A stretch of DNA of 63,209 nucleotides, filler included, from Collodictyon triciliatum (Eukaryota), in NCBI GenBank assembly GCA_043381765.1. It is 8 parts of 8 records of this genome, joined end to end, with 100 filler letters (N's around TTAATTAATTAA, not from the genome) between each part and the next. Parts side by side here need not be neighbours in the genome. Positions count along the whole stretch, not along the records: positions 42,123 to 51,121 come from JBHJMP010003208.1; 7 more parts are not named here. The stretch is one strand, 5' to 3'. A program made the position numbers and the translations under genes. The notes beneath the pieces are model-generated. The model had not been told where the DNA came from, did not search any database, and saw only the letters and a list, made by a program, of their open reading frames with translations. Each line of letters opens with the position of its first letter. The first letter of the stretch is position 1. This document shows positions 42,023-60,319 of this stretch, one piece after another.

Positions 42023-42122
42023 NNNNNNNNNNNNNNNNNNNNNNNNNNNNNNNNNNNNNNNNNNNNTTAATTAATTAANNNNNNNNNNNNNNNNNNNNNN
42101 NNNNNNNNNNNNNNNNNNNNNN
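42023..42122. other. Artificial contig spacer
   Basis: N-TTAATTAATTAA-N 100-bp linker. Confidence 0.97.
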
Positions 42123-43690: not shown

Positions 43691-45595
43691 ATGGGTTGCT
43701 GCGGTGGTGACAGTTCTGAGGACACGTCCAACAGCCGAAACATCGACGCACAGTTGAAGAAGGACAAGGCTAAAATGCGCAGTGAAGTGAAGCTCCTTCT
43801 TCTCGGTACGTCATCCACAAATCCTTTCAAGCAACGACACAATAACAGGCATATAAACACAAGCAACAACATATTTACACTCGTCCTGGGTCCAAGAATA
43901 GCAGCTGATCCTTATACTTTTATCTCTATCGTCAGTCAGGACTTGCTTTTATCTTGTTCTTCTGTTCCCTCTAATAATCTATGTTGTTTTCTTACTTTGT
44001 AGGGACTGGTGAGTCGGGCAAGAGCACCATCCTCAAGCAGATGAAGATCATCCACCAGGAGGGCTACAGTGAGCAGGAACGTGTTGCATTCAAGGACATC
44101 ATCTTCAACAATATCATTCAAGGAATGAAGGGGCTGATTTCCAACGCAGCCAAGCTGGGGATCAAAATCGAGACTGCTGAGAACGAGGTAGACTTGAAAA
44201 TTTACAGCTGTGTAGCTTACTCGCTCAAAGAGCCCAAATCGCTATTGCTTTTGACTCTTATATATATATATATTTGTCTTTCGCATAGACTCAGTAGGAG
44301 TTCAATTGTATCTTACTTTCCCCTTAAACAACTTTGTTGCTAACCTTTTAGGCTCGTTCGCAACGCATTTCTGGCATCGAAGTTGGCGAAGGCTGGACCT
44401 CCGAAATCGGCAACGAAATCGCCCAGTTGTGGACAGACAAAGGCATCCTTGAGACTTACGCCCGCCGCTCAGAGTTCCAGCTGGATGACTCTGTTAAATA
44501 GTATGATCTTTATGTATTAAGTCCACGAGGTGGCAGCTTCTTAAAATGATATCTACATGAATGATAAGTGTAATGTTATGGATCGTTGAATTTACTTTTA
44601 TTCGACGTCCAGCTACTTCGACAGCCTGGATCGCATCAACTCCGCATCTTACGTACCTGACGAGCAAGATATTCTACGCTCACGTGTCCGCACAACTGGT
44701 ATTGTCGAGATCCAGTTTGTTCTCCAAGACTTCCGCTTCCGGTACGCTTGTTTATGTTGAGACTCTATCTCCATTTTCTCTGTATTTATTTATTTATTTA
44801 TTTATTTTTGGCTTCACATATTCATGAGAGATGATAGTTTCAATGTGTCAGACGAATTAATTCTGTGACTTAGCATCTTCGACGTCGGAGGTCAACGAAA
44901 CGAGCGCAAGAAGTGGATTCACTGTTTCCAGGATGTCACAGCTGTCATCTTCTGCGTGGCTATCAGCGAATATCCTTTTCAATGAATAAGATATCAATGG
45001 ACTTCAGAAAGCCCATATAGATGTACAAATACTGTCCCCTTTTTAATGCAGAAGTAAATTAAGCAAATTAAATATCACCGAGAATATTCTCAGTAATCAT
45101 GATGAATGCATAATCCTTAACCTGTATGCACATATGATCAAAAGCTCTTTGAGGATGAATCCCAAAACCGCATGAAGGAGTCCCTTCTCCTTTTTGACGA
45201 AATTTGCAACAGCCGCTGGTTCTTGGATACATCCATGATTCTTTTCTTGAACAAGACAGATATTTTCCGTGAGAAGATCCAGAAGACCGACCTGAGCGTT
45301 TGCTTTCCCTCCTACAAAGGTATGTCATGAAACTAATTTCAGTGTCTCATTCTTTCGTCTTTCGTTGCCATCTTCTTGCCCACAGTCCTCAAAGCTATGA
45401 CACAACCCAGGTGGAAAAGACTACGAGAAGGCCACCCTTTTCATTCGCCAGCGATTCGAAGAGCTCAACAAGACAGACACCAAGCAAATCTACACCCACT
45501 TCACATGTGCCACAGACACGAACAATATCAAGATTATCTTCAACGCCGTGAAGGATATCATCCTGCAAAAGGCTCTCCGTGACCTTGGTTTCTAA
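43691..45595 (+). CDS. Heterotrimeric G-protein alpha subunit (7 exons, one U12 AT-AC intron)
   Basis: MGCCGG N-terminus (myristoylation/palmitoylation), [43 protein letters not shown] at 45593-45595. Confidence 0.97.
44970..45131 (+). other. U12-type (minor spliceosome) AT-AC intron
   Basis: 5' end ATATCCTTTT, branch site TCCTTAAC at 45114-45121, 3' end GCAC; removal restores [11 protein letters not shown] in frame. Confidence 0.93.
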
Positions 45596-46258
45596 GCCTG
45601 GAGCTGTTCTTTGTATGGCTATCCCCTTTTCTTTTCATAGCAGCCGAATCCCTATTCTCTCCCTAATGCCGATATGTTTTAATCATATTTTCTTCTTGTC
45701 CCATTCCCAGGAACTTGTATGGAGCCTTCTCAGTTCTCCTTTCGTCGCTGTTCTATTCTTTTCTTTTCTTTATTTCCCATCACACTTTGACCTGGACTTC
45801 TCCCTTTGCGCTTCCGGTCGACTCTGATATTGGCTACACAAGCTTATTTTCCTTTCGCCAGCTGCTCTTCAACCACTCTTCAGATATGGACTATTGTTGT
45901 GGCAAGCCGTGGCGCTGATACTTTAAACCAACACCCGGCGGACTGTTTGAACGATGCCATCCACCACCCAAAACATCCGCATCCATAAACCCAACGCGTA
46001 TCGCTATGCACTTATTCACTCATCCACCACCACCACCACCACCACCACCACCACGCATTCAGCAGATATCCCCAGAAGACACGAGTGTTTTTTCTTTATC
46101 ACTATTACTACCTTTTTTTTATCTTCCTCAGAACACAAACAGCTGGCAATACATACGAGAATATGGACACAAGGAGTGGGTTGCAGGCCGAGGAGTGATG
46201 CCGTTTTATTCGACGCGAAGAAGGTTGGGCTGATTGTATGTACTGGGAAAGGGCATCA

Positions 46259-46697
46259 CTAGAGGTAGTAGAGCTCCAGCCCCATCCCGTCGTGGATCTC
46301 GTAGTCCTCCAGTGTGATGTGGTCTTTGAAAACTGTGTACCATTTTTGAAGGCGGATCTTCTCGGGCCGTGTGCCTGGCGAGCCGCGGGTGTGGGAAAGT
46401 GAGGCGCGTTCAGAGCGAGGATAACAGGGTGAGAAAATAGAGGTGATTGATGTCAACCAAGCGCGAGATTCAAGTTATGTTTGAGTACAAATGGATAAAA
46501 ATACAGATAGTAATTAAATAATAATAATAATAAAAAAAAAAAAAAGAAGCAGAATAACGAGACAATGGAAGGGAAAATGAATAAAGCAAACCGGTTTGCG
46601 CAGCGATGAGCTTTTTGAGATCTCCGATGGTATCGTCTGGGTTGCATTTGACTCGCACTTTTTTCCCAAGGCGATCGTTACAGACAACTTCGATCAT
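46259..46697 (-). CDS. UBL5: Ubiquitin-like protein 5 / Hub1 (2 coding exons)
   Basis: [73 protein letters not shown], with the diagnostic C-terminal YY. Confidence 0.97.
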
Positions 46698-47169
46698 TCT
46701 ATACACATCAACGATTTGTTCAACAGTGTTCGGAGAGGGCTGTTTGACGGCGAGCATGTGGTGGGATGAGAGTCACGCATGCGGTTTGTTGGAGCACTCA
46801 CCCGCTTCTCCCTCGCCCCAAGGAGATGGCCCGAATAGATCGGATTCAAGAATGGTTGTTGGCGTGTAATCATAACAAATGTGGAAAATATGTAACATGG
46901 TTCAAATCTATTCTATCCTTTTCGCCCACACAACACACACCTTTTATAAATACTCTTACGATTGTTTTGCTTTGTTATGTCTGTTGTCATTCCTGTGGTG
47001 CTTATATGTCTGATGTAAACAAAGTATTACGCAGCCGCCCAAGAGCATCTTTGTTTATGCGCTACAGCCTTGGCATAACGTGTCACGGAAAAAGGGTTGG
47101 CTCTAGCCGACCCACAGGAAGCCCACAAAACTTCCAGAGAACACAAATGTCATTAAACATTCCAAGGAA

Positions 47170-47440
47170 TTTATCGCACCCGGCGATACTGTAAACCATT
47201 GTGCCTGGCAAAGGCGCGGTATGGCAGAAATACACGACAAAGTACGCTACATAGAGGACAAGGGGCTGGGGCTCTGCCTTGATTCATCTTTCTTTTTATA
47301 CCACAAGGGGCAAACCAATCGGAAGATTGGTAAACTTGGTGCGCTAGTATCCAAGGTCTCGCCACTTTTTTCACAAAGATCGTGTAGTGGTGAAGGCTGC
47401 CAGGAAAGACCCAAAAGCCTGATTTTTTAGAGGAAGATGT
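47170..47440 (-). ncRNA. Candidate Fanzor omega-RNA / right-end region
   Basis: Directly 3' of the Fanzor ORF; hairpins at 47314-47331 (7-bp stem, 4-nt loop), 47362-47390 and 47172-47188. Boundaries are not determinable by eye. Confidence 0.4.
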
Positions 47441-49449
47441 ATGCATATTTGGAAGGATTAAAAGAACTTTCTTGAGTATATTTTTAGCGCTTTTAAAGTC
47501 CCTTGTCAAGGATATAGTTTGTTTGTTTTCTGAGCGATTGCATTCTTTACATATGAGACATATATACATCTGTTTTGAATTTCCTTTCGGTTGCATATAT
47601 TCCAGCTCTTTTTCGCAGTTGCAGCACATCTTGGAGGTTCTAAATTCATCTATACTAACTATCAAAACGTTTGTATAGTATTTTTCGTAATCTTCCAATT
47701 GTTGGCATAAAATGTTTTATCGGAGATTTTCTGCTCCAGTCTCCAACGCCAGTACAACATCCTTGCCAAATGTCTTTTCAATTCAGTCCATAAACAATTG
47801 TTCACTTCTTTTTTTTACTAACATACTGTCTCCATCTCATCTTTCGAAAAGTGACTTGTTCATAAAATCTGGATAATTCTATCTGGTATCTTGGTTTCAT
47901 AGATACATATTTTCGAAGTTTTTCATAATCGACCGTGCATAAATTATGTTTACTCAATTCTGTCTCTAAATCGATTAAAGATACTCTTGACGTCTCAAAT
48001 AGCTGATTCTCTTCAAAAGTCTTGAGACCAAAATAAACAGCACTTTGTAAACCTGTTGCCATGCATATCCCTGAAGCATTGTACTTTTTTTTTTCTCGCG
48101 CAAGAGTATTTTGTGATTTTTAAGAGATTTGCTATCATGTCTTTTTTGGTGCGGTGTAACGTAATTTCTTACCTGTCTCATCCACCATGTAAACCAAATC
48201 AAACTTACATGCATCCACTCCAACTATTATTTTTTTGTCGCTAATAAAGATAACTGCTCTTCGGAAAGTTCATCTATATAATCATTTTGGGGGGTTTTTT
48301 TTTGATTTTTTTGAATTTGAATTTGAAATAGCTTTCTTTTCAAACAGTAAAGACACCACCAAGTCGCCTGTTTGTGTCATATATTTAAAATTGTAATCTC
48401 TCTGATGAAAGACCCTCTTCTTCATTTCAAAGAACTTATCCCATAGTGTCTCTTTGCATCCTGATATATTCTTCATTAATGATGTTTTTTTTTTTTTACA
48501 GATAATGCTAATAGATATATCAAACATGCAGTATCTATAGTAACATGACATGGCGTATTGTTAGTTCTTACAGAGATTGGTTGAAACAGTTTCGTTACAA
48601 TGTCCCAAAAATGCGATTCATGTAAATCTGACATGGAATGTACTTATTTGGATTGACTTTGGCGTCATATTCGATCCCTTTTGCAATATCGCTGGGAATG
48701 ATATGATGCAAATGCGTTATAGCCCATCCTTAATATTGCTCCGGTATTTCGAGTTTCTTGAAGATGGTCTTTTTTAACTTTCGTAACTCTGCCTTTTTAA
48801 TAGCTTTCATAATATTCTCATCTTTAGGAACTATTTGATTTATAAAGCGCATTAACCTCTTTACAAATGTTCCTTAATTTTATTATGATAAGCTGTTAGC
48901 ATTTACTTCGCTAAGTACGGCAGTACATGAGACAGTCCAACCAATGGAAAGCATTCTTCTTGGGACAAAAGGAATCGAAAATCGTAGAGATAAAAAGTCA
49001 TCATGTCTTTACTCATTTCTGGATTTTCTTAATCTTGCGGGTCTGTCTTGTGAAACTATTCCGACTGTCTTTAAAGCGAACAAAAAAACAAAAAACAAAA
49101 AACAAAAAACAAAAAACAAAAAACAAAAAACAAAAAACAAAAAACAAAAAACAAAAAACAAAAAACAAAAAACAAAAACAAACAAACAAACAAACAAACA
49201 AACAAACAAACAAACAAACAAACAAACAAACATTTCATCGATTGTTGGGACTTGTTGTGATTTCAATATGTAACATCTTGCAGACAGATAAGTGTCAGTG
49301 ACCAAATTATGACACAATAAAACCGTATCGTTGATTTTGTAATCGTCATCCAGATTCTTTACAATCGACTTTAGAGATGTTTTCACATTTCGCTAGCCTG
49401 GTTTTACATGCTTTAGATTCTCAAACTCAAGATGTTTTCTTTTCTTCAT
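47440..49449 (-). pseudogene. Fanzor1 (TnpB-derived RNA-guided endonuclease) pseudogene
   Basis: Collinear frameshifted fragments: VKTSLKSI, LPYLAK*MLTAYHNKIKEH / KRLMRFIN, YDAKVNPNKY...IYMN, YNFKYMTQTGDLVVSLLF, RuvC-I VGVDACKFDLVYMVD, FRKMRWRQY, GDWS, RuvC-II IDEFRTSKMCCNC, CKEC, RuvC-III TRDFKSAKNI. Confidence 0.85.
49078..49231. repeat. (AAAAAAC)n/(AAAC)n microsatellite inside the Fanzor pseudogene
   Basis: Visible tandem repeat lying between codons IDEMF and FALKTVG. Confidence 0.95.
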
Positions 49450-49963
49450 CTGAAAGTCTTTGTTTTACTTTTTCCTTTTGAAAACTACCAAGTTTTCAAT
49501 TTTGATAAAACTTTAGTCAATCAGTCAATTAGTCAATTTAATAAAAAAAAATGCATTAACTCAATTTATGTAAAATTAAGCATATACTGAGACTCTCAAA
49601 GTGTGCGCATTGCGGTAAACAGACACACAAAGTTTTTTTAGAAGTGATTTGAGACAAAACGCTGAGAGCCGATTCAGCGAGTTCGAAATGACAGCCATAT
49701 AGCCATTGCGGCTGAAAGTCAACATATCGGCCCCAAATAACATGATTACCACCGCAAGTGTGGATAGTATGCTTTTTTGATATGCATGTTTGGTGGCAGG
49801 TTTATAGGGTGGGTTCTGTCTAGGCCAATGCAAGGGCTTGTTTGCAATTTTTGAATTTGTGAATTAATATTACAGAATGGAAAATAAAATGTAAATTGAT
49901 TGTAGGAATAGAGTGAAATAATTTAGTATTTTAAACCTTATTATATTCTAATCACACTATTAT

Positions 49964-50059
49964 ATTATTCAGGTTGTTTCTTGCCAACATCTCAACCATC
50001 CTGCACAAAATTGAAAGGAAGAATAAAAAAAAAAAAAAAATTATTCAGGTTGTTTCTTG
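49964..50059 (+). mobile_element. 5'-truncated poly(A)-tailed retro-insertion with 20-bp target-site duplication
   Basis: ATTATTCAGGTTGTTTCTTG at 49964-49983 and 50040-50059 flanks 56 nt ending in AATAAA that runs into a poly(A) tract. Confidence 0.65.
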
Positions 50060-50744
50060 GATTCATCAAAGCTCCTGCTTTTGTCTATCCATATTTAATT
50101 CGTTGGTTGTCTGTGCAATAAATGGCTATATATTTATATGGGTACACTTTTGATGTATAAAAAGTGTTGTGACTTGAAAGGGATAAACCCAAGTTCGTCA
50201 CAACCTTTGTAGTGAAGTTTATCCATTTACAGGCTGAATGCGACCGAAGAAAAAAGAAAAAAGAAAAAAGAAAAAAGAAAAAAGAAAAAAGAAAAAAGAA
50301 AAAAGAAAAATAAGAAAATTAGAAAAAAAAGAAAAAAAGAAAAAAAGAAAAAGAAACAGACGAATGAATCAGAGCAACTAACACTGAGCACCATAATCAT
50401 AATTATCTTGTCACGCCCATGGGTCGATGGCTAGAGCTCGATTCGTCTTTTTTTCTTTCCCTTTATTATTCGTTTCAAAGAGCTCGCTCCGTCTTATTAG
50501 TAGGTTGTTGTACTCACAGATCGGTGGCTGGCGGGGTCTTGATCGTCGGCGTGTCTCTGTGCATAACCTGTGTTGCAAGGGATGTGATAAAGTGACCTTT
50601 TCGCTCTCTGCGTTGACTGCGTCGGCCTTCCCGGTTTGCGTACGATCGGTAGGCATTCTGCGGGGTGCCGGTCTCCTGGTAGGCGGTCTCCTGGTAGGCG
50701 GTCTCGTCCTTCTCGAGATCGCTCTTTCCGATCACTTGTGTTTT

Positions 50745-50783
<39 letters not shown>

Positions 50784-50948
50784 TTTTATTCCGGCTTCAC
50801 AATGCAGCAGGTCGAGAAAAGAAGGAAAGGAGGAGCCCCGGTTCAATTATATTTTCTGGAGAATGTGCCCTTTGTCTCTCTCTGTGTTTATTATTTCTCA
50901 GCAAATTAGACTTTTTCTTATTCCTTGTGGTTTTCTATTGCTCCTCTA

Positions 50949-51020
<72 letters not shown>

Positions 51021-51121
51021 GTGTGATCGCCACATTTATTCACATCGGCGCACGATGCAATCGAAACAAACAAACAAACAAACAAACAAACAAACAAACA
51101 AACACACAAACAAACAAAAAA

Positions 51122-51221
51122 NNNNNNNNNNNNNNNNNNNNNNNNNNNNNNNNNNNNNNNNNNNNTTAATTAATTAANNNNNNNNNNNNNNNNNNNNNNN
51201 NNNNNNNNNNNNNNNNNNNNN
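51122..51221. other. Artificial contig spacer
   Basis: N-TTAATTAATTAA-N 100-bp linker. Confidence 0.97.
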
Positions 51222-51392
51222 TATTATTTTATATTATTTTATATTATTTTATATTATTTTATATTATTTTATATTATTTTATATTATTTTATATTATTTT
51301 ATATTATTTTATATTATTTTTTTCGGTCGTATGGACGAAAAAAAATCACTATTTGCTGGGTCGCTACTGCAATACAAAGAGAGAGAAAAAAC

Positions 51393-51507
51393 CTGTGAGC
51401 CTGAGATCCAGAATGAAGTTCTGCGAGAGGCGTTTTGTGGCCTTGAGTCCATAAATGCGGAGGATGTCCTTGATCTTCGGCAGAGACGGCAAAGGAAGCG
51501 TGGTCAT
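51393..51507 (-). CDS. TFB1M: Mitochondrial rRNA dimethyladenosine transferase (KsgA/TFB1M family), exon 1 only
   Basis: [38 protein letters not shown] followed by a GT donor; LSQNF(I/L)LD motif. Confidence 0.85.
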
Positions 51508-51626
51508 CTTGCGTGACAATGGACAAGTATCGGAGTGTGTTTGTCTCTCTGTTCCTCGGTGATGTCCCTTGCAAGTCCCTGCCCGTCTGTTTTCTCCTAG
51601 ACCAAAAGAAAGCAGTTTGAAAAAAT

Positions 51627-51666
51627 TGCGCTCTCCGGGAATCGAACCCGGGTCGACCACGAGCGC
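51627..51666 (-). tRNA. Internally deleted tRNA-Gly-like element (acceptor stem + T arm only)
   Basis: GCGCTCG-TGGTCGAC-CCGGG-TTCGATT-CCCGG-AGAGCGC-A, followed by T6 at 51620-51625; D loop and anticodon arm are missing. Confidence 0.7.
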
Positions 51667-52527
51667 CTCTTATCCCCGAAGGCAGGATATATGACACCTA
51701 AAATACCATAACTTATATTTCTTACTCTGGAAAATTTATTTTAAATAGTACAACTTAGGACAGTAGCGACTCTCAGCACCTAAGGCACCGCGCAAATCAC
51801 ATTTATTAACCACAAGACAACATCTGCCTAGCTGTCCTGGCCTGGAACATGTATTCCAGCAGAACATCCGCCTTAACTCAATGAAAATGCATCAATCAGT
51901 GCACTCTCACCGAAAGTTCTTCGTTAAGTGGGACATGTGTCGAACACTTCCTTTTACGTTTCCTTCTTGTCGCGGCTGTGTGCGTGTGCGTGTGCCGCGC
52001 CAAGTCTCGGTGGTATGAATCAGCCGGATCGGACTGGAAAAGCGGCGACCGTGCCATGCGACAAACAAGACAACGCGTGATACGCGCAGAATAAAAACAG
52101 TACAGAGTTTCTCGCGGCACAAGACTTCTTGCAAGGAAACCTTTGAGCAAGCTCAAATAAAAACAAAAACAAAAACAAAAACAAAAACAAAAATAAAAAA
52201 TCAAAGGAAAAAAATAAAAATAAAAATAAAATACGTGACTGTCAGGACAATAATACATTCACACAAGACTTGGCGCTGGCGCTCGTCCGACTCTGCGGTC
52301 ACAAAGCCTAGTCCGTGACTACGTCCCTTGATCATTCCCCCAAGGAGAAAAAACTGGAATTAATGACAATAAATATCAAAGAATAAAAGATAAATAATAA
52401 TAATAACAATAATGATAATGATAATGATAATGATAGTGATAACGATAACGATGAAGTAAGATAAAGATCAGAACAACCCCAAAGTGACTTTATCCCCTCC
52501 TTTGTTCGTGAGTAGAAGTAACCTGCC

Positions 52528-60219: not shown

Positions 60220-60319
60220 NNNNNNNNNNNNNNNNNNNNNNNNNNNNNNNNNNNNNNNNNNNNTTAATTAATTAANNNNNNNNNNNNNNNNNNNNNNNNN
60301 NNNNNNNNNNNNNNNNNNN
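60220..60319. other. Artificial contig spacer
   Basis: N-TTAATTAATTAA-N 100-bp linker. Confidence 0.97.

What the first reader, a model, noticed from the sequence alone, without database searches (positions are those of the whole stretch)
47440..49449. Near full-length Fanzor1 RNA-guided nuclease relic with the RuvC D-E-D triad retained
Seen: short minus-strand ORFs stitch across frameshifts and stops into one collinear ~2-kb gene, from MKKRKH...*RNVKTSLKSI to TRDFKSAKNI. The three candidate catalytic codons remain: D 48213-48215 (VGVDAC, where GxDPG is usual), E 47645-47647 (IDEFRTS), D 47498-47500 (TRD). The zinc-finger cysteines CCNC...CKEC and the GDWS motif (47733-47744) also remain. Established: this motif order and the long N-terminus characterise Fanzor1, the eukaryotic/giant-virus descendants of TnpB that cut DNA using an omega-RNA. 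Inference: this lineage hosted, and may still host, its own Fanzor family. This copy is dead and no transposase is seen on the contig, but its completeness should allow consensus resurrection.
Basis: partly seen in the sequence, partly recalled or inferred. Interest (0 to 1): 0.88.

Follow-up and report, generated by a model that had tools for sequence, protein, structure and literature searches.

The report
Dead Fanzor1 nuclease gene relic
A decayed but nearly full-length copy of a Fanzor1 RNA-guided nuclease gene, of the kind carried by cut-and-paste transposons, lies between ordinary host genes of a microbial eukaryote; such relics are ordinary, and intact relatives exist elsewhere.

Summary
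On the minus strand, 49449-47383 aligns collinearly across three frames with residues 1-642 of P0001, an intact 648-aa metagenomic protein. 389 of 625 aligned codons are identical, and tblastn gives E 3e-90 and 5e-83.

P0001 and a 46-member family profile match the three solved Fanzor1 nucleases. The profile gives SpuFz1 4e-104, PpFz1 1.5e-103 and GtFz1 4e-76, and does not reach Fanzor2. An AlphaFold model of P0001 superposes on SpuFz1 at TM 0.72-0.78.

The copy is dead:
- 4 stop codons
- 11-13 frame changes
- a 154-bp microsatellite inside the coding region
- DPG degraded to DAC

No transposase, terminal repeats or guide-RNA scaffold were detected.

Relatives are very abundant: 3147 cluster representatives, and 449 giant-virus contig loci, many inside TIR elements with a DDE_3 transposase. 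Four public runs hold many diverged copies, some lacking this copy's defects.

Verdict: a real but ordinary new member of a known kind. Interest is low.

The parts
47383..49449 (-). Fanzor1 pseudogene body, collinear with residues 1-642 of the intact relative P0001. The conserved part ends near 47423.
   Evidence: tblastn and frameshift-aware alignment: 389 of 625 codons identical, 13 frameshifts, 4 stops.
49420..49449 (-). Start codon and basic N-terminus MKKRKHLEFE. A nuclear-localisation role is inferred only.
   Evidence: Aligns with MKKRKRQTTE of P0001. N-terminal NLSs in Fanzors are described in passages of PMC10530073.
49079..49232 (.). Microsatellite, (AAAAAAC)n/(AAAC)n on the + strand, inserted in the REC-domain coding region. 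It is absent from P0001.
   Evidence: TRF and alignment gap. It has no AG before coding resumes, so it is not an intron (sequence read).
48207..48224 (-). RuvC-I motif VGVDAC. D at 48215-48213 is retained, but the family-invariant P and conserved G of 'DPG' are lost.
   Evidence: D364 and P365 invariant in 46 sequences. Aligned with SpuFz1 D383 (residue numbers from PMC10432273).
47986..48084 (-). 99-nt GT...AG segment (33 codons) shared with P0001 but absent from 7 closer-to-viral relatives. It is either a candidate unspliced intron or a disordered insertion.
   Evidence: Alignment A2 and script. P0001 residues 417-438 have pLDDT below 50.
47733..47744 (-). GDWS: the canonical RuvC-II position, where Fanzors carry G or P instead of E.
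   Evidence: G521 is invariant in A1. Aligned with GDWS of SpuFz1. Passages of PMC10530073.
47645..47647 (-). Alternative catalytic glutamate in IDEFRTSK.
   Evidence: E555 is invariant in A1. Aligned with SpuFz1 E541.
47540..47626 (-). C4 zinc finger (TNB domain), CCNC...CKEC.
   Evidence: Cysteine codons located. Weak PF07282 hit, E 0.0022, below the gathering score. PF07282 is found in 25 of 46 family members.
47498..47500 (-). RuvC-III aspartate in TRDFKSAKNI.
   Evidence: D604 and N610 are invariant in A1. Aligned with SpuFz1 D606.
49393..49395 (-). In-frame stop TAG where P0001 has Tyr19.
48903..48905 (-). In-frame stop TAA where P0001 has Gln137. This stop is private to this copy.
   Evidence: All covering contig depth of runs X1 and X4 reads a sense codon here (table 3).
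48730..48732 (-). In-frame stop TAA next to P0001 residue 193.
47783..47785 (-). In-frame stop TGA where P0001 has Lys507.
47230..47422 (-). 3' flank, where a guide (omega) RNA scaffold and the right transposon end would be expected. Nothing recognisable is left.
   Evidence: No hit of model R1 here. Fold z-score -0.52. No inverted repeat with the 5' flank.
42023..42122 (.). Artificial spacer (N44-TTAATTAATTAA-N44): left border of the real contig that holds the relic.
51122..51221 (.). Artificial spacer: right border of the real contig.

Best explanation
The stretch is the decayed remnant of one insertion of a Fanzor1-carrying DNA transposon in the nuclear genome of a microbial eukaryote.

In life, the gene encoded a protein of about 650 aa, an omega-RNA-guided, TnpB-like RuvC nuclease. 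Its parts were WED and REC domains, a split RuvC with Asp (DPG), the 'alternative' Glu (DEFRTSK) and Asp (RD..N), and a C4 zinc finger.

By analogy with characterised Fanzor1s, a structured RNA transcribed from the 3' end of the element would have guided the protein to cut DNA next to a target-adjacent motif.

The family's mobility partner in its giant-virus relatives is a DDE_3 (Tc1/mariner-IS630-type) transposase acting on 28-33-bp terminal inverted repeats.

This copy lost function after insertion. It accumulated stops, frameshifts, a microsatellite expansion and loss of the DPG signature. Its transposon ends and guide RNA are no longer recognisable.

Shown here: homology, collinearity, motif retention, the defects, and the absence of partner genes.

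Inferred: the former RNA-guided cleavage activity, the type of transposon that delivered this copy, and the order of decay.
For: 1. The relic is collinear with intact P0001: E 3e-90 and 5e-83, 62% identity over 625 codons.

2. P0001 matches solved Fanzor1 structures by sequence: GtFz1 2e-28, PpFz1 3e-24, SpuFz1 4e-23.

3. The 46-sequence profile A1 covers SpuFz1 over profile positions 8-603 of 613 at 4e-104, PpFz1 at 1.5e-103 and GtFz1 at 4e-76.

4. An AlphaFold model of P0001 (pLDDT 85.5, pTM 0.84) has the seven Fanzor1 chains as its top seven PDB matches, with TMq 0.65-0.73. The next match is a Cas12 at TM 0.31, and ApmFz2 scores 0.21.

5. The family-invariant D364, E555 and D604 align with SpuFz1 D383, E541 and D606, offset 394 in the MBP fusion chain (residue roles from passages of PMC10432273). 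The relic keeps all three codons.

6. Defects: 4 stops, 11-13 frame changes and a 154-bp microsatellite.

7. The same 9-kb contig carries a G-alpha exon and a UBL5-like exon, and no viral or transposase gene.

8. Relatives are mobile. The viral copies share sharp homology borders and 28-33-bp TIRs. L001 carries a 346-aa DDE_3+HTH transposase inside the TIRs. 26 of 80 viral loci hold a homologue of that transposase within the fetched flanks.

9. Contigs of 4 runs from 4 studies align to the relic at 80-100% identity: X1 163, X2 5, X3 14, X4 317. At the TAA stop 48903-48905, all covering depth in X1 and X4 reads a sense codon. Some contigs carry 1-base differences at the frameshift sites near 47745, 47809, 48084 and 48605. 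So several defects are private to this copy.
Against: - Pfam on the relic's own fragments gives only a sub-threshold PF07282 hit (E 0.0022). The 80-aa C-terminal fragment alone does not reach significance against PDB: Fanzor1 E 0.41, TnpB 0.53. Fanzor1 membership therefore rests on the bridge through P0001.

- About half of the frameshifts lie in A-runs (sequence read), which is also where sequencing errors arise. Some of them may be assembly artefacts.

- No TIR, target-site duplication, transposase or omega-RNA was found, so delivery by a transposon is inferred from relatives, not seen here.

- The DNA of P0001's own contig could not be fetched, so the element type of the closest clade is unknown.

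- The host organism is not identified.
Confidence: 0.9

Rival explanations
1. The gene is alive. On this reading the apparent frameshifts are assembly errors in homopolymers or unrecognised introns, and the locus encodes a working Fanzor1.
For: - Roughly half of the frame changes sit in A-runs.
- Contigs of other runs lack several of them.
- Fanzor genes of eukaryotes can carry introns (passage of PMC10530073).
- One 99-nt GT...AG segment is a candidate intron.
Against: - Four stops of all three kinds fall at positions where P0001 has Tyr, Gln or Lys, or sits next to a conserved block. Substitutions are not homopolymer errors.
- The frame changes at 47746, 47660, 48600, 48866 and 49026 are not in long homopolymers.
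- The invariant DPG reads DAC.
- A 154-bp T/G-only repeat with no splice acceptor sits inside the REC domain.
- Neighbouring host exons on the contig are open.
Confidence: 0.03
2. The relic is a fragment of an endogenised giant virus, not a remnant of a transposon that moved within the host genome.
For: - The nearest protein-atlas clusters are 92-100% viral, Nucleocytoviricota.
- 449 IMG/VR loci encode relatives, many in GVMAG contigs.
Against: - On the 9-kb contig the relic is a single gene between cellular, intron-bearing genes: a G-alpha exon and a UBL5-like exon.
- No viral hallmark gene or transposase is present.
- The best viral identity is only 44-47%, against 62% to the metagenomic P0001.
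- Hundreds of short diverged contigs in runs X1 and X4 look like a dispersed repeat family.
- P0001 and P0153 lie on contigs of 2610 and 2597 bases, about the size of one element.
Confidence: 0.06
3. The sequence has been exapted, for example as a regulatory element or non-coding RNA, and is kept for a reason other than the nuclease.
For: None found. The only hint is that a near full-length body has persisted.
Against: - Defects are spread over the whole length.
- The 3' flank shows no structure signal, z -0.52.
- Other copies differ at hundreds of positions: 40 differences are listed and 501 more are not shown.
Confidence: 0.01

Closest known systems
Spizellomyces punctatus Fanzor1 (SpuFz1; PDB 8GKH, 9CEU-9CEZ), Parasitella parasitica Fanzor1 (9CF0-3) and Guillardia theta Fanzor1 (9CER-T)
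   Same: - Homologous over the whole length: profile E 4e-104, 1.5e-103 and 4e-76.
- Same fold, TM 0.65-0.78.
- Same D / alternative-E / D triad and GDWS at the canonical RuvC-II site.
- Same zinc finger.
   Different: - About 20% sequence identity.
- The window's copy is a pseudogene without recognisable inverted repeats or omega-RNA.
- SpuFz1 has DPN where this family has DPG.
- Activity was not tested.
Mariner-type Fanzor1 elements of giant viruses and oomycetes (PGv-1 of Phaeocystis globosa virus; PUl-1/PUl-4 of Pythium ultimum; Bao & Jurka 2013, PMC3627910, passages read)
   Same: The relic's viral relatives have the same layout: Fanzor1 alone, or together with a mariner-like/DDE_3 transposase, between TIRs with TA at both junctions.
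   Different: - I could not compare sequences with PGv-1 or PUl. The supplements are closed and no reference sequences are held.
- The window's copy has lost any such ends.
Non-autonomous Fanzor1 element of Spodoptera frugiperda ascovirus 1a and its three-stem reRNA (Yoon et al. 2023, PMC10711439, passages read)
   Same: The viral relatives found here are Fanzor-only TIR elements. Their 3' end folds into three stems, with the right TIR forming part of the last stem.
   Different: This RNA model does not detect the five viral loci closest to the relic (L001-L005), nor anything at the relic's 3' end.
Fanzor2 (ApmFz2, PDB 9B0L) and IS607/IS605 TnpB (ISDra2)
   Same: RuvC plus zinc-finger core, and RNA-guided DNA cleavage in the characterised members.
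   Different: - The profile does not reach Fanzor2 at E <= 0.001.
- TM is only 0.21-0.27 to ApmFz2 and 0.20-0.32 to TnpB.
- Fanzor2 and TnpB lack the long REC/WED insertions.

Membership tests
Fanzor1 | Significant whole-length similarity to experimentally characterised Fanzor1 nucleases | tested here: met
   Relic to P0001: E 3e-90, 62% identity. P0001 to Fanzor1 structures: 2e-28 to 4e-23. Family profile: 4e-104 to 4e-76. The relic's short fragments alone are not significant.
Fanzor1 | RuvC-I aspartate within a DPG-type motif | tested here: inconclusive
   The Asp codon is kept (48215-48213), but the motif reads DAC. P365 is invariant and G366 conserved in relatives. The motif is degraded, as expected of a pseudogene.
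Fanzor1 | Gly/Pro at the canonical RuvC-II position and an alternative glutamate downstream (DE.xTS) | tested here: met
   GDWS at 47744-47733 and IDEFRTSK with E at 47647-47645. G521 and E555 are invariant. E aligns with SpuFz1 E541. Definition from passages of PMC10530073 and PMC10711439.
Fanzor1 | C4 zinc finger followed by RuvC-III 'RD' ([TS][TS]-x-x-C4-x(5,50)-RD; Bao & Jurka 2013) | tested here: met
   TSKMCCNC...CLICKEC...TRDFKSAKNI is all in one frame, 47716-47477.
Fanzor1 | WED-domain TDG motif (Yoon et al. 2023) | tested here: inconclusive
   In family alignment A1, T312 is invariant and D313 and G314 are at least 90% conserved. The relic reads T-G-D at that place, so the motif is scrambled.
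Fanzor1 | Fanzor1 fold (REC2 kinked helices, WED, split RuvC) rather than the Fanzor2/TnpB fold | tested here: met
   Tested on the intact relative P0001, not on the relic. The top seven PDB matches are Fanzor1 chains, TMq 0.65-0.73. ApmFz2 scores 0.21.
Fanzor1 | Intact open reading frame | tested here: not met
   4 stops, 11-13 frame changes and a 154-bp microsatellite insertion. It is a relic of a member, not a working member.
Fanzor1 | Structured omega/reRNA at the 3' end of the element | tested here: inconclusive
   Model R1 from viral relatives gives no hit at 47200-47440. The best hit in 45000-52000 has E 0.14 and lies in low-complexity sequence. Fold z-score is -0.52. R1 also misses the five closest viral loci, L001-L005, so the negative result is weak.
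Fanzor1 | RNA-guided, TAM-dependent DNA cleavage | not testable with these tools
   Needs biochemistry on an intact relative.
Tc1/mariner-IS630-type (DDE_3) transposon carrying Fanzor1 | DDE_3 transposase and terminal inverted repeats around the Fanzor gene | tested here: not met
   Present in viral relatives: L001 DDE_3 at 1.3e-13 plus HTH, TIRs, and 26 of 80 loci with the transposase. In the window there is no transposase hit (best E 3.3), no TIR-like motif and no inverted repeat between the flanks (best 10 nt, E 0.4).
Fanzor2 / IS607 TnpB | Closest similarity to Fanzor2/TnpB, and association with an IS607 serine recombinase | tested here: not met
   No Fanzor2 chain reaches E <= 0.001 with the family profile. 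TM to ApmFz2 is 0.21/0.27. No recombinase is present on the contig.

The most novel reading that the evidence does not exclude
The relic and its intact metagenomic relatives (P0001, P0153) may be a host-resident branch of a Tc1/mariner-type Fanzor1 transposon family that is otherwise hugely amplified in giant-virus genomes.

This branch may bear an intron. It may still be live in related freshwater protists, given the hundreds of diverged copies in runs X1 and X4.

If so, the relic would be a trace of traffic of an RNA-guided nuclease transposon between giant viruses and their hosts.
Probability: 0.35. Interest if true: 0.4.

Novelty: new member of a known kind. Interest (0 to 1): 0.2.

Why it matters
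The relic itself matters little. Fanzor1 genes and their decayed copies are already known from many protists, fungi, animals and giant viruses (passages of PMC3627910, PMC10530073 and PMC10432273). This family alone has 3147 cluster representatives.

The relic records that this unnamed microbial eukaryote was once colonised by such an element. It also points to an intact 648-aa relative, P0001, at 62% identity.

The clade as a whole is somewhat more useful. It is compact (about 620-650 aa), very abundant in giant-virus contigs, and has clear ends, a partner transposase and a conserved three-stem 3' RNA. It could therefore serve as a natural series for studying how Fanzor1 guide RNAs co-evolve with transposon ends.

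Tried and rejected
- **Own genome.** Searching it for paralogues was not possible, because no genome is held.

- **Pfam.** On nine single-frame fragments, the only hit to a TnpB-related family is the sub-threshold PF07282 match on one fragment; the other matches (up to E 1) are to unrelated families. On P0001 there was no hit in the local copy, although a precomputed label PF26935/DUF8286 exists.

- **PDB search with fragments.** The 80-aa C-terminal fragment was not significant.

- **The search for related loci.**
  - P0001 in viral contigs: 36 pattern matches, none confirmed.
  - Alignment A1: too diverse to search with.
  - P0001 in metagenome contigs: one distant locus, L081, at 21% identity. 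The DNA of the closest clade was not obtained.

- **The listing of cluster members.** No names or accessions, only P0153 and a 160-aa fragment.

- **TIR search between the flanks.** Nothing beyond 10-nt chance matches.

- **Viral TIR motifs and the L001 transposase against the window.** Nothing found.

- **Omega-RNA.** Covariance model R1 on 45000-52000 gave no credible hit. Folding the 3' flank gave z -0.52.

- **RNAalifold on the mixed-clade alignment A3.** Poorly resolved, so I redid it on one clade.

- **Sequencing runs.** No RNA holder is listed, and all shares are small at 0.05-0.11. This says nothing about expression. Run X4 is only guessed to be RNA. The joints do not match the candidate intron. 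Parts without cover are not interpreted.

- **Host identification.** Pfam on host ORFs and the protein atlas were not decisive. An amoebozoan guess from a SibA-like Ig hit is not supported by anything else, and I dropped it.

- **Phylogeny.** I did not build a tree against labelled Fanzor1a-d/Fanzor2 sequences, because no labelled reference sequences are held and the papers' supplements are closed.
Full report
**What is there**

A search with the longest single-frame piece (47802-48119, 105 aa) found an intact 648-aa protein, P0001, at 55% identity over 99% of the piece. It also found a 209-aa fragment, P0002.

tblastn of P0001 against the whole window gives three collinear minus-strand HSPs in three frames, covering residues 1-629 (E 2.75e-90, 4.95e-83, 2.75e-90). 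Every other hit in the 63 kb has E >= 0.23.

A frameshift-aware dynamic-programming alignment that I wrote pairs 625 codons, 389 identical (62%), from Met1 at 49449 to residue 642 at 47383.

**Is it Fanzor1?**

- Pfam does not recognise the pieces beyond a sub-threshold PF07282 hit (E 0.0022). My local Pfam copy finds nothing in P0001.
- P0001 does hit the three solved Fanzor1 nucleases directly: GtFz1 2.1e-28, PpFz1 2.7e-24, SpuFz1 3.7e-23.
- An exhaustive HMMER search gave 3147 cluster representatives at E <= 1e-3, of which 537 are at E <= 1e-30. 150 of the 151 proteins then held hit the relic itself by tblastn.
- A profile of 46 full-length members (A1) matches SpuFz1 over profile positions 8-603 of 613 at 4.4e-104, PpFz1 at 1.5e-103 and GtFz1 at 4.1e-76. 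Beyond these, only LaTranC appears at about 4e-4, and no Fanzor2 chain appears.
- PF07282 is found in 25 of the 46 members.
- An AlphaFold2 model of P0001 built with A1 (pLDDT 85.5, pTM 0.84) has seven Fanzor1 chains as its seven best PDB matches, with TMq 0.65-0.73 and E 3e-26 to 7e-23. The next match is a Cas12 at TM 0.31, and Fanzor2 of mimivirus scores TM 0.21/0.27.

**The catalytic triad**

Saito et al. (PMC10432273, passages) name D383, E541 and D606, plus N385, as the metal-binding residues of SpuFz1.

In the profile alignment to chain 8gkh_P, 'IDPN', 'LDEYKTS' and 'NRD' fall at chain positions 777, 935 and 1000. That is those three residues with a constant offset of 394. They pair with the family's invariant D364, E555 and D604.

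The relic keeps all three codons: 48215-48213, 47647-47645 and 47500-47498.

GDWS (47744-47733) sits at the canonical RuvC-II place, where Fanzors carry Gly or Pro. The E in IDEFRTSK is the 'alternative' glutamate (passages of PMC10530073 and PMC10711439). Bao & Jurka 2013 already noted this conserved G and E (passage).

**How dead is it?**

The alignment contains the following.

- Four in-frame stops:
  - TAG 49395-49393, in place of Tyr19
  - TAA 48905-48903, in place of Gln137
  - TAA 48732-48730
  - TGA 47785-47783, in place of Lys507
- Thirteen frameshifts. The last (47422) is in the unconserved tail. Two (48326, 48294) lie in a weakly conserved linker and may be one event. At least 11 frame changes are therefore anchored by conserved blocks on both sides.
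- A 154-bp (AAAAAAC)n/(AAAC)n microsatellite (49079-49232) interrupts the REC region. It has no splice acceptor, so it is not an intron.
- The invariant DPG reads DAC, and the WED 'TDG' reads TGD.

About half of the frameshifts lie in A-runs and could in principle be sequencing errors. The stops and the other shifts cannot.

**Context**

The window is not one contig. Seven N44-TTAATTAATTAA-N44 spacers join separate contigs; I recall that a six-frame stop linker of this kind is a common way to concatenate contigs.

The relic's real contig is 42123-51121. It also holds a G-alpha exon (PF00503), a UBL5-like exon (46470-46772; my reading of the translation, with no Pfam hit) and simple repeats.

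On this contig I found:
- no second copy
- no transposase (best E 3.3)
- no TIR-like motif
- no inverted repeat between the flanks (best 10 nt, E 0.4)
- no structured 3' RNA

The host is a eukaryote with an ATP-type PEPCK, TCP-1, a proteasome subunit and thioredoxin. I could not name it.

**What the relatives show**

The nearest protein-atlas clusters are 92-100% viral, Nucleocytoviricota, and are labelled PF26935/DUF8286.

In IMG/VR, 449 of 546 pattern matches encode relatives. The 80 loci kept have intact ORFs of 555-637 aa in 78 cases; the other two are cut by the locus end. The best identity to P0001 is 44-47%.

Copies on different contigs share DNA only between sharp borders. Those borders are 28-33-bp terminal inverted repeats (TTTACACC...AAAACGCC), with TA at both junctions. 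In 75 of 80 loci a right-end motif lies within 260 bp of the stop, typically 75-84 bp after it.

In L001 the TIRs enclose 3.3 kb holding the Fanzor1 gene and a divergent 346-aa protein with DDE_3 (1.3e-13) and HTH_28 domains. I recall DDE_3 as the Tc1/mariner-IS630 type. A homologue of this transposase lies in the fetched flanks of 26 of 80 loci.

This is the layout Bao & Jurka described for Mariner-type Fanzor1 elements, with PGv-1 in a giant virus and PUl-1/PUl-4 in an oomycete (passages).

The last 135 nt of 27 such elements fold into three stems. There are compensatory changes in stem 1 (4-9 sequences per pair) and in the stem that pairs a subterminal segment with the right TIR. This agrees with the three-stem reRNA, with the TIR in the scaffold, reported by Yoon et al. 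(passages).

The covariance model R1 built from these 27 ends finds exactly one hit, just 3' of the ORF, in 73 of 80 loci. It misses L001-L005, which are the closest to the relic, and two truncated loci. Its silence in the window is therefore weak evidence.

**Other copies in public data**

No run holds the stretch as such; shares are 0.05-0.11.

Laid at 80% likeness or more, contigs of four runs from four studies align along most of 47280-49070: X1 163, X2 5, X3 14 and X4 317. X1 to X3 are freshwater metagenomes, and X4 is a coded organism. By identity band (>=99 / 95-99 / 90-95 / <90%), X1 has 13/32/62/56 and X4 has 31/71/114/101.

This is the picture of a dispersed, diverged repeat family in the same or related organisms.

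- Where the relic has the TAA at 48903-48905, all covering depth in X1 and X4 reads a sense codon, the one P0001 has.
- At the third residue of the degraded DPG motif (DAC here), most or all covering depth in X1, X3 and X4 reads Gly.
- Some contigs carry one-base differences at or next to the frameshifts near 47745, 47809, 48084 and 48605, and a one-codon insertion at 47690 where the relic lacks a residue (tables 3-4).

Several defects are thus private to this copy. At 80% likeness some contigs may come from other organisms. Contigs cannot show expression.

**Mechanism, as far as supported**

In life, the element would have made a Fanzor1 protein of about 650 aa and a 3'-end guide RNA. The complex would have cut DNA matching the guide next to a short adjacent motif, as shown for SpuFz1 and others (passages of PMC10432273 and PMC10530073). 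A DDE transposase supplied in cis or in trans would have moved the element.

For this copy, all of that is inference from homology. What is shown is a gene that can no longer encode the protein.

**Novelty and score**

Fanzor1 genes, their association with Mariner-type and other transposons, their presence in giant viruses and the alternative glutamate are all in print.

The relic is a new member of a known kind, and a broken one. Interest is 0.2.

The most novel reading still open is that it marks exchange of this transposon between giant viruses and a protist host lineage in which the family is still alive.

Noticed in passing
window 9029-9128, 18140-18239, 27242-27341, 36343-36442, 42023-42122, 51122-51221, 60220-60319: Seven identical spacers, N44-TTAATTAATTAA-N44. 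The window is a chain of separate contigs joined by a six-frame stop linker, so genes on either side of a spacer need not be neighbours in the genome. Two plain N gaps also occur, at 20087-20586 and 22304-22931.
   Followed up: yes
L001-L080 (IMG/VR contigs), e.g. L001:3637-6952, L037:4512-6913: A very abundant Fanzor1 transposon family in giant-virus contigs, with 449 loci. It has 28-33-bp TIRs (TTTACACC...AAAACGCC) and TA at both junctions. It occurs as Fanzor-only units of 2.0-2.4 kb and as 3.3-kb units with a divergent DDE_3+HTH transposase. The transposase homologue lies near 26 of 80 loci.
   Followed up: partly
L007:6770-6904 and 26 other loci (alignment A4); model R1: The last 135 nt or so of the viral elements, overlapping the stop codon, form a conserved three-stem RNA. 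The right TIR pairs with a subterminal segment, and stems 1 and 3 show compensatory changes. R1 finds it once in 73 of 80 loci. It is a candidate omega/reRNA scaffold.
   Followed up: partly
window 47986-48084 (-), and P0001 residues about 408-440: A 99-nt GT...AG segment (33 codons) is shared by the relic and P0001 but absent from seven relatives. Removing it gives ...EKKKVSLIDLETELS, as in the viral proteins. The segment has low pLDDT in the model. It could be an in-frame unspliced intron or a disordered loop. Its GC content (0.39) is higher than its flanks (0.24-0.26), which does not favour an intron.
   Followed up: partly
window 24664-27297 (+): An 877-aa open frame without introns runs into a spacer. 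It has DUF4114, a SibA-like Ig domain and bacterial cadherin-like domains. The nearest atlas clusters are bacterial, at a score of 0.89 or lower. It is either an adhesin-like gene of the eukaryote or a contaminant contig.
   Followed up: partly
whole window, e.g. 13132-13769, 50247-51320, 7080-8074: The window is unusually dense in microsatellites, including (TC)n, (AAAC)n, (AAGAAAA)n, CAT/CCA repeats and a 10-mer array. One of them has expanded inside the relic.
   Followed up: no
L055:1-2654 versus L036:4064-6724: L055 holds a second, inverted copy of the element upstream of the matched one, so some viral contigs carry two copies close together.
   Followed up: no
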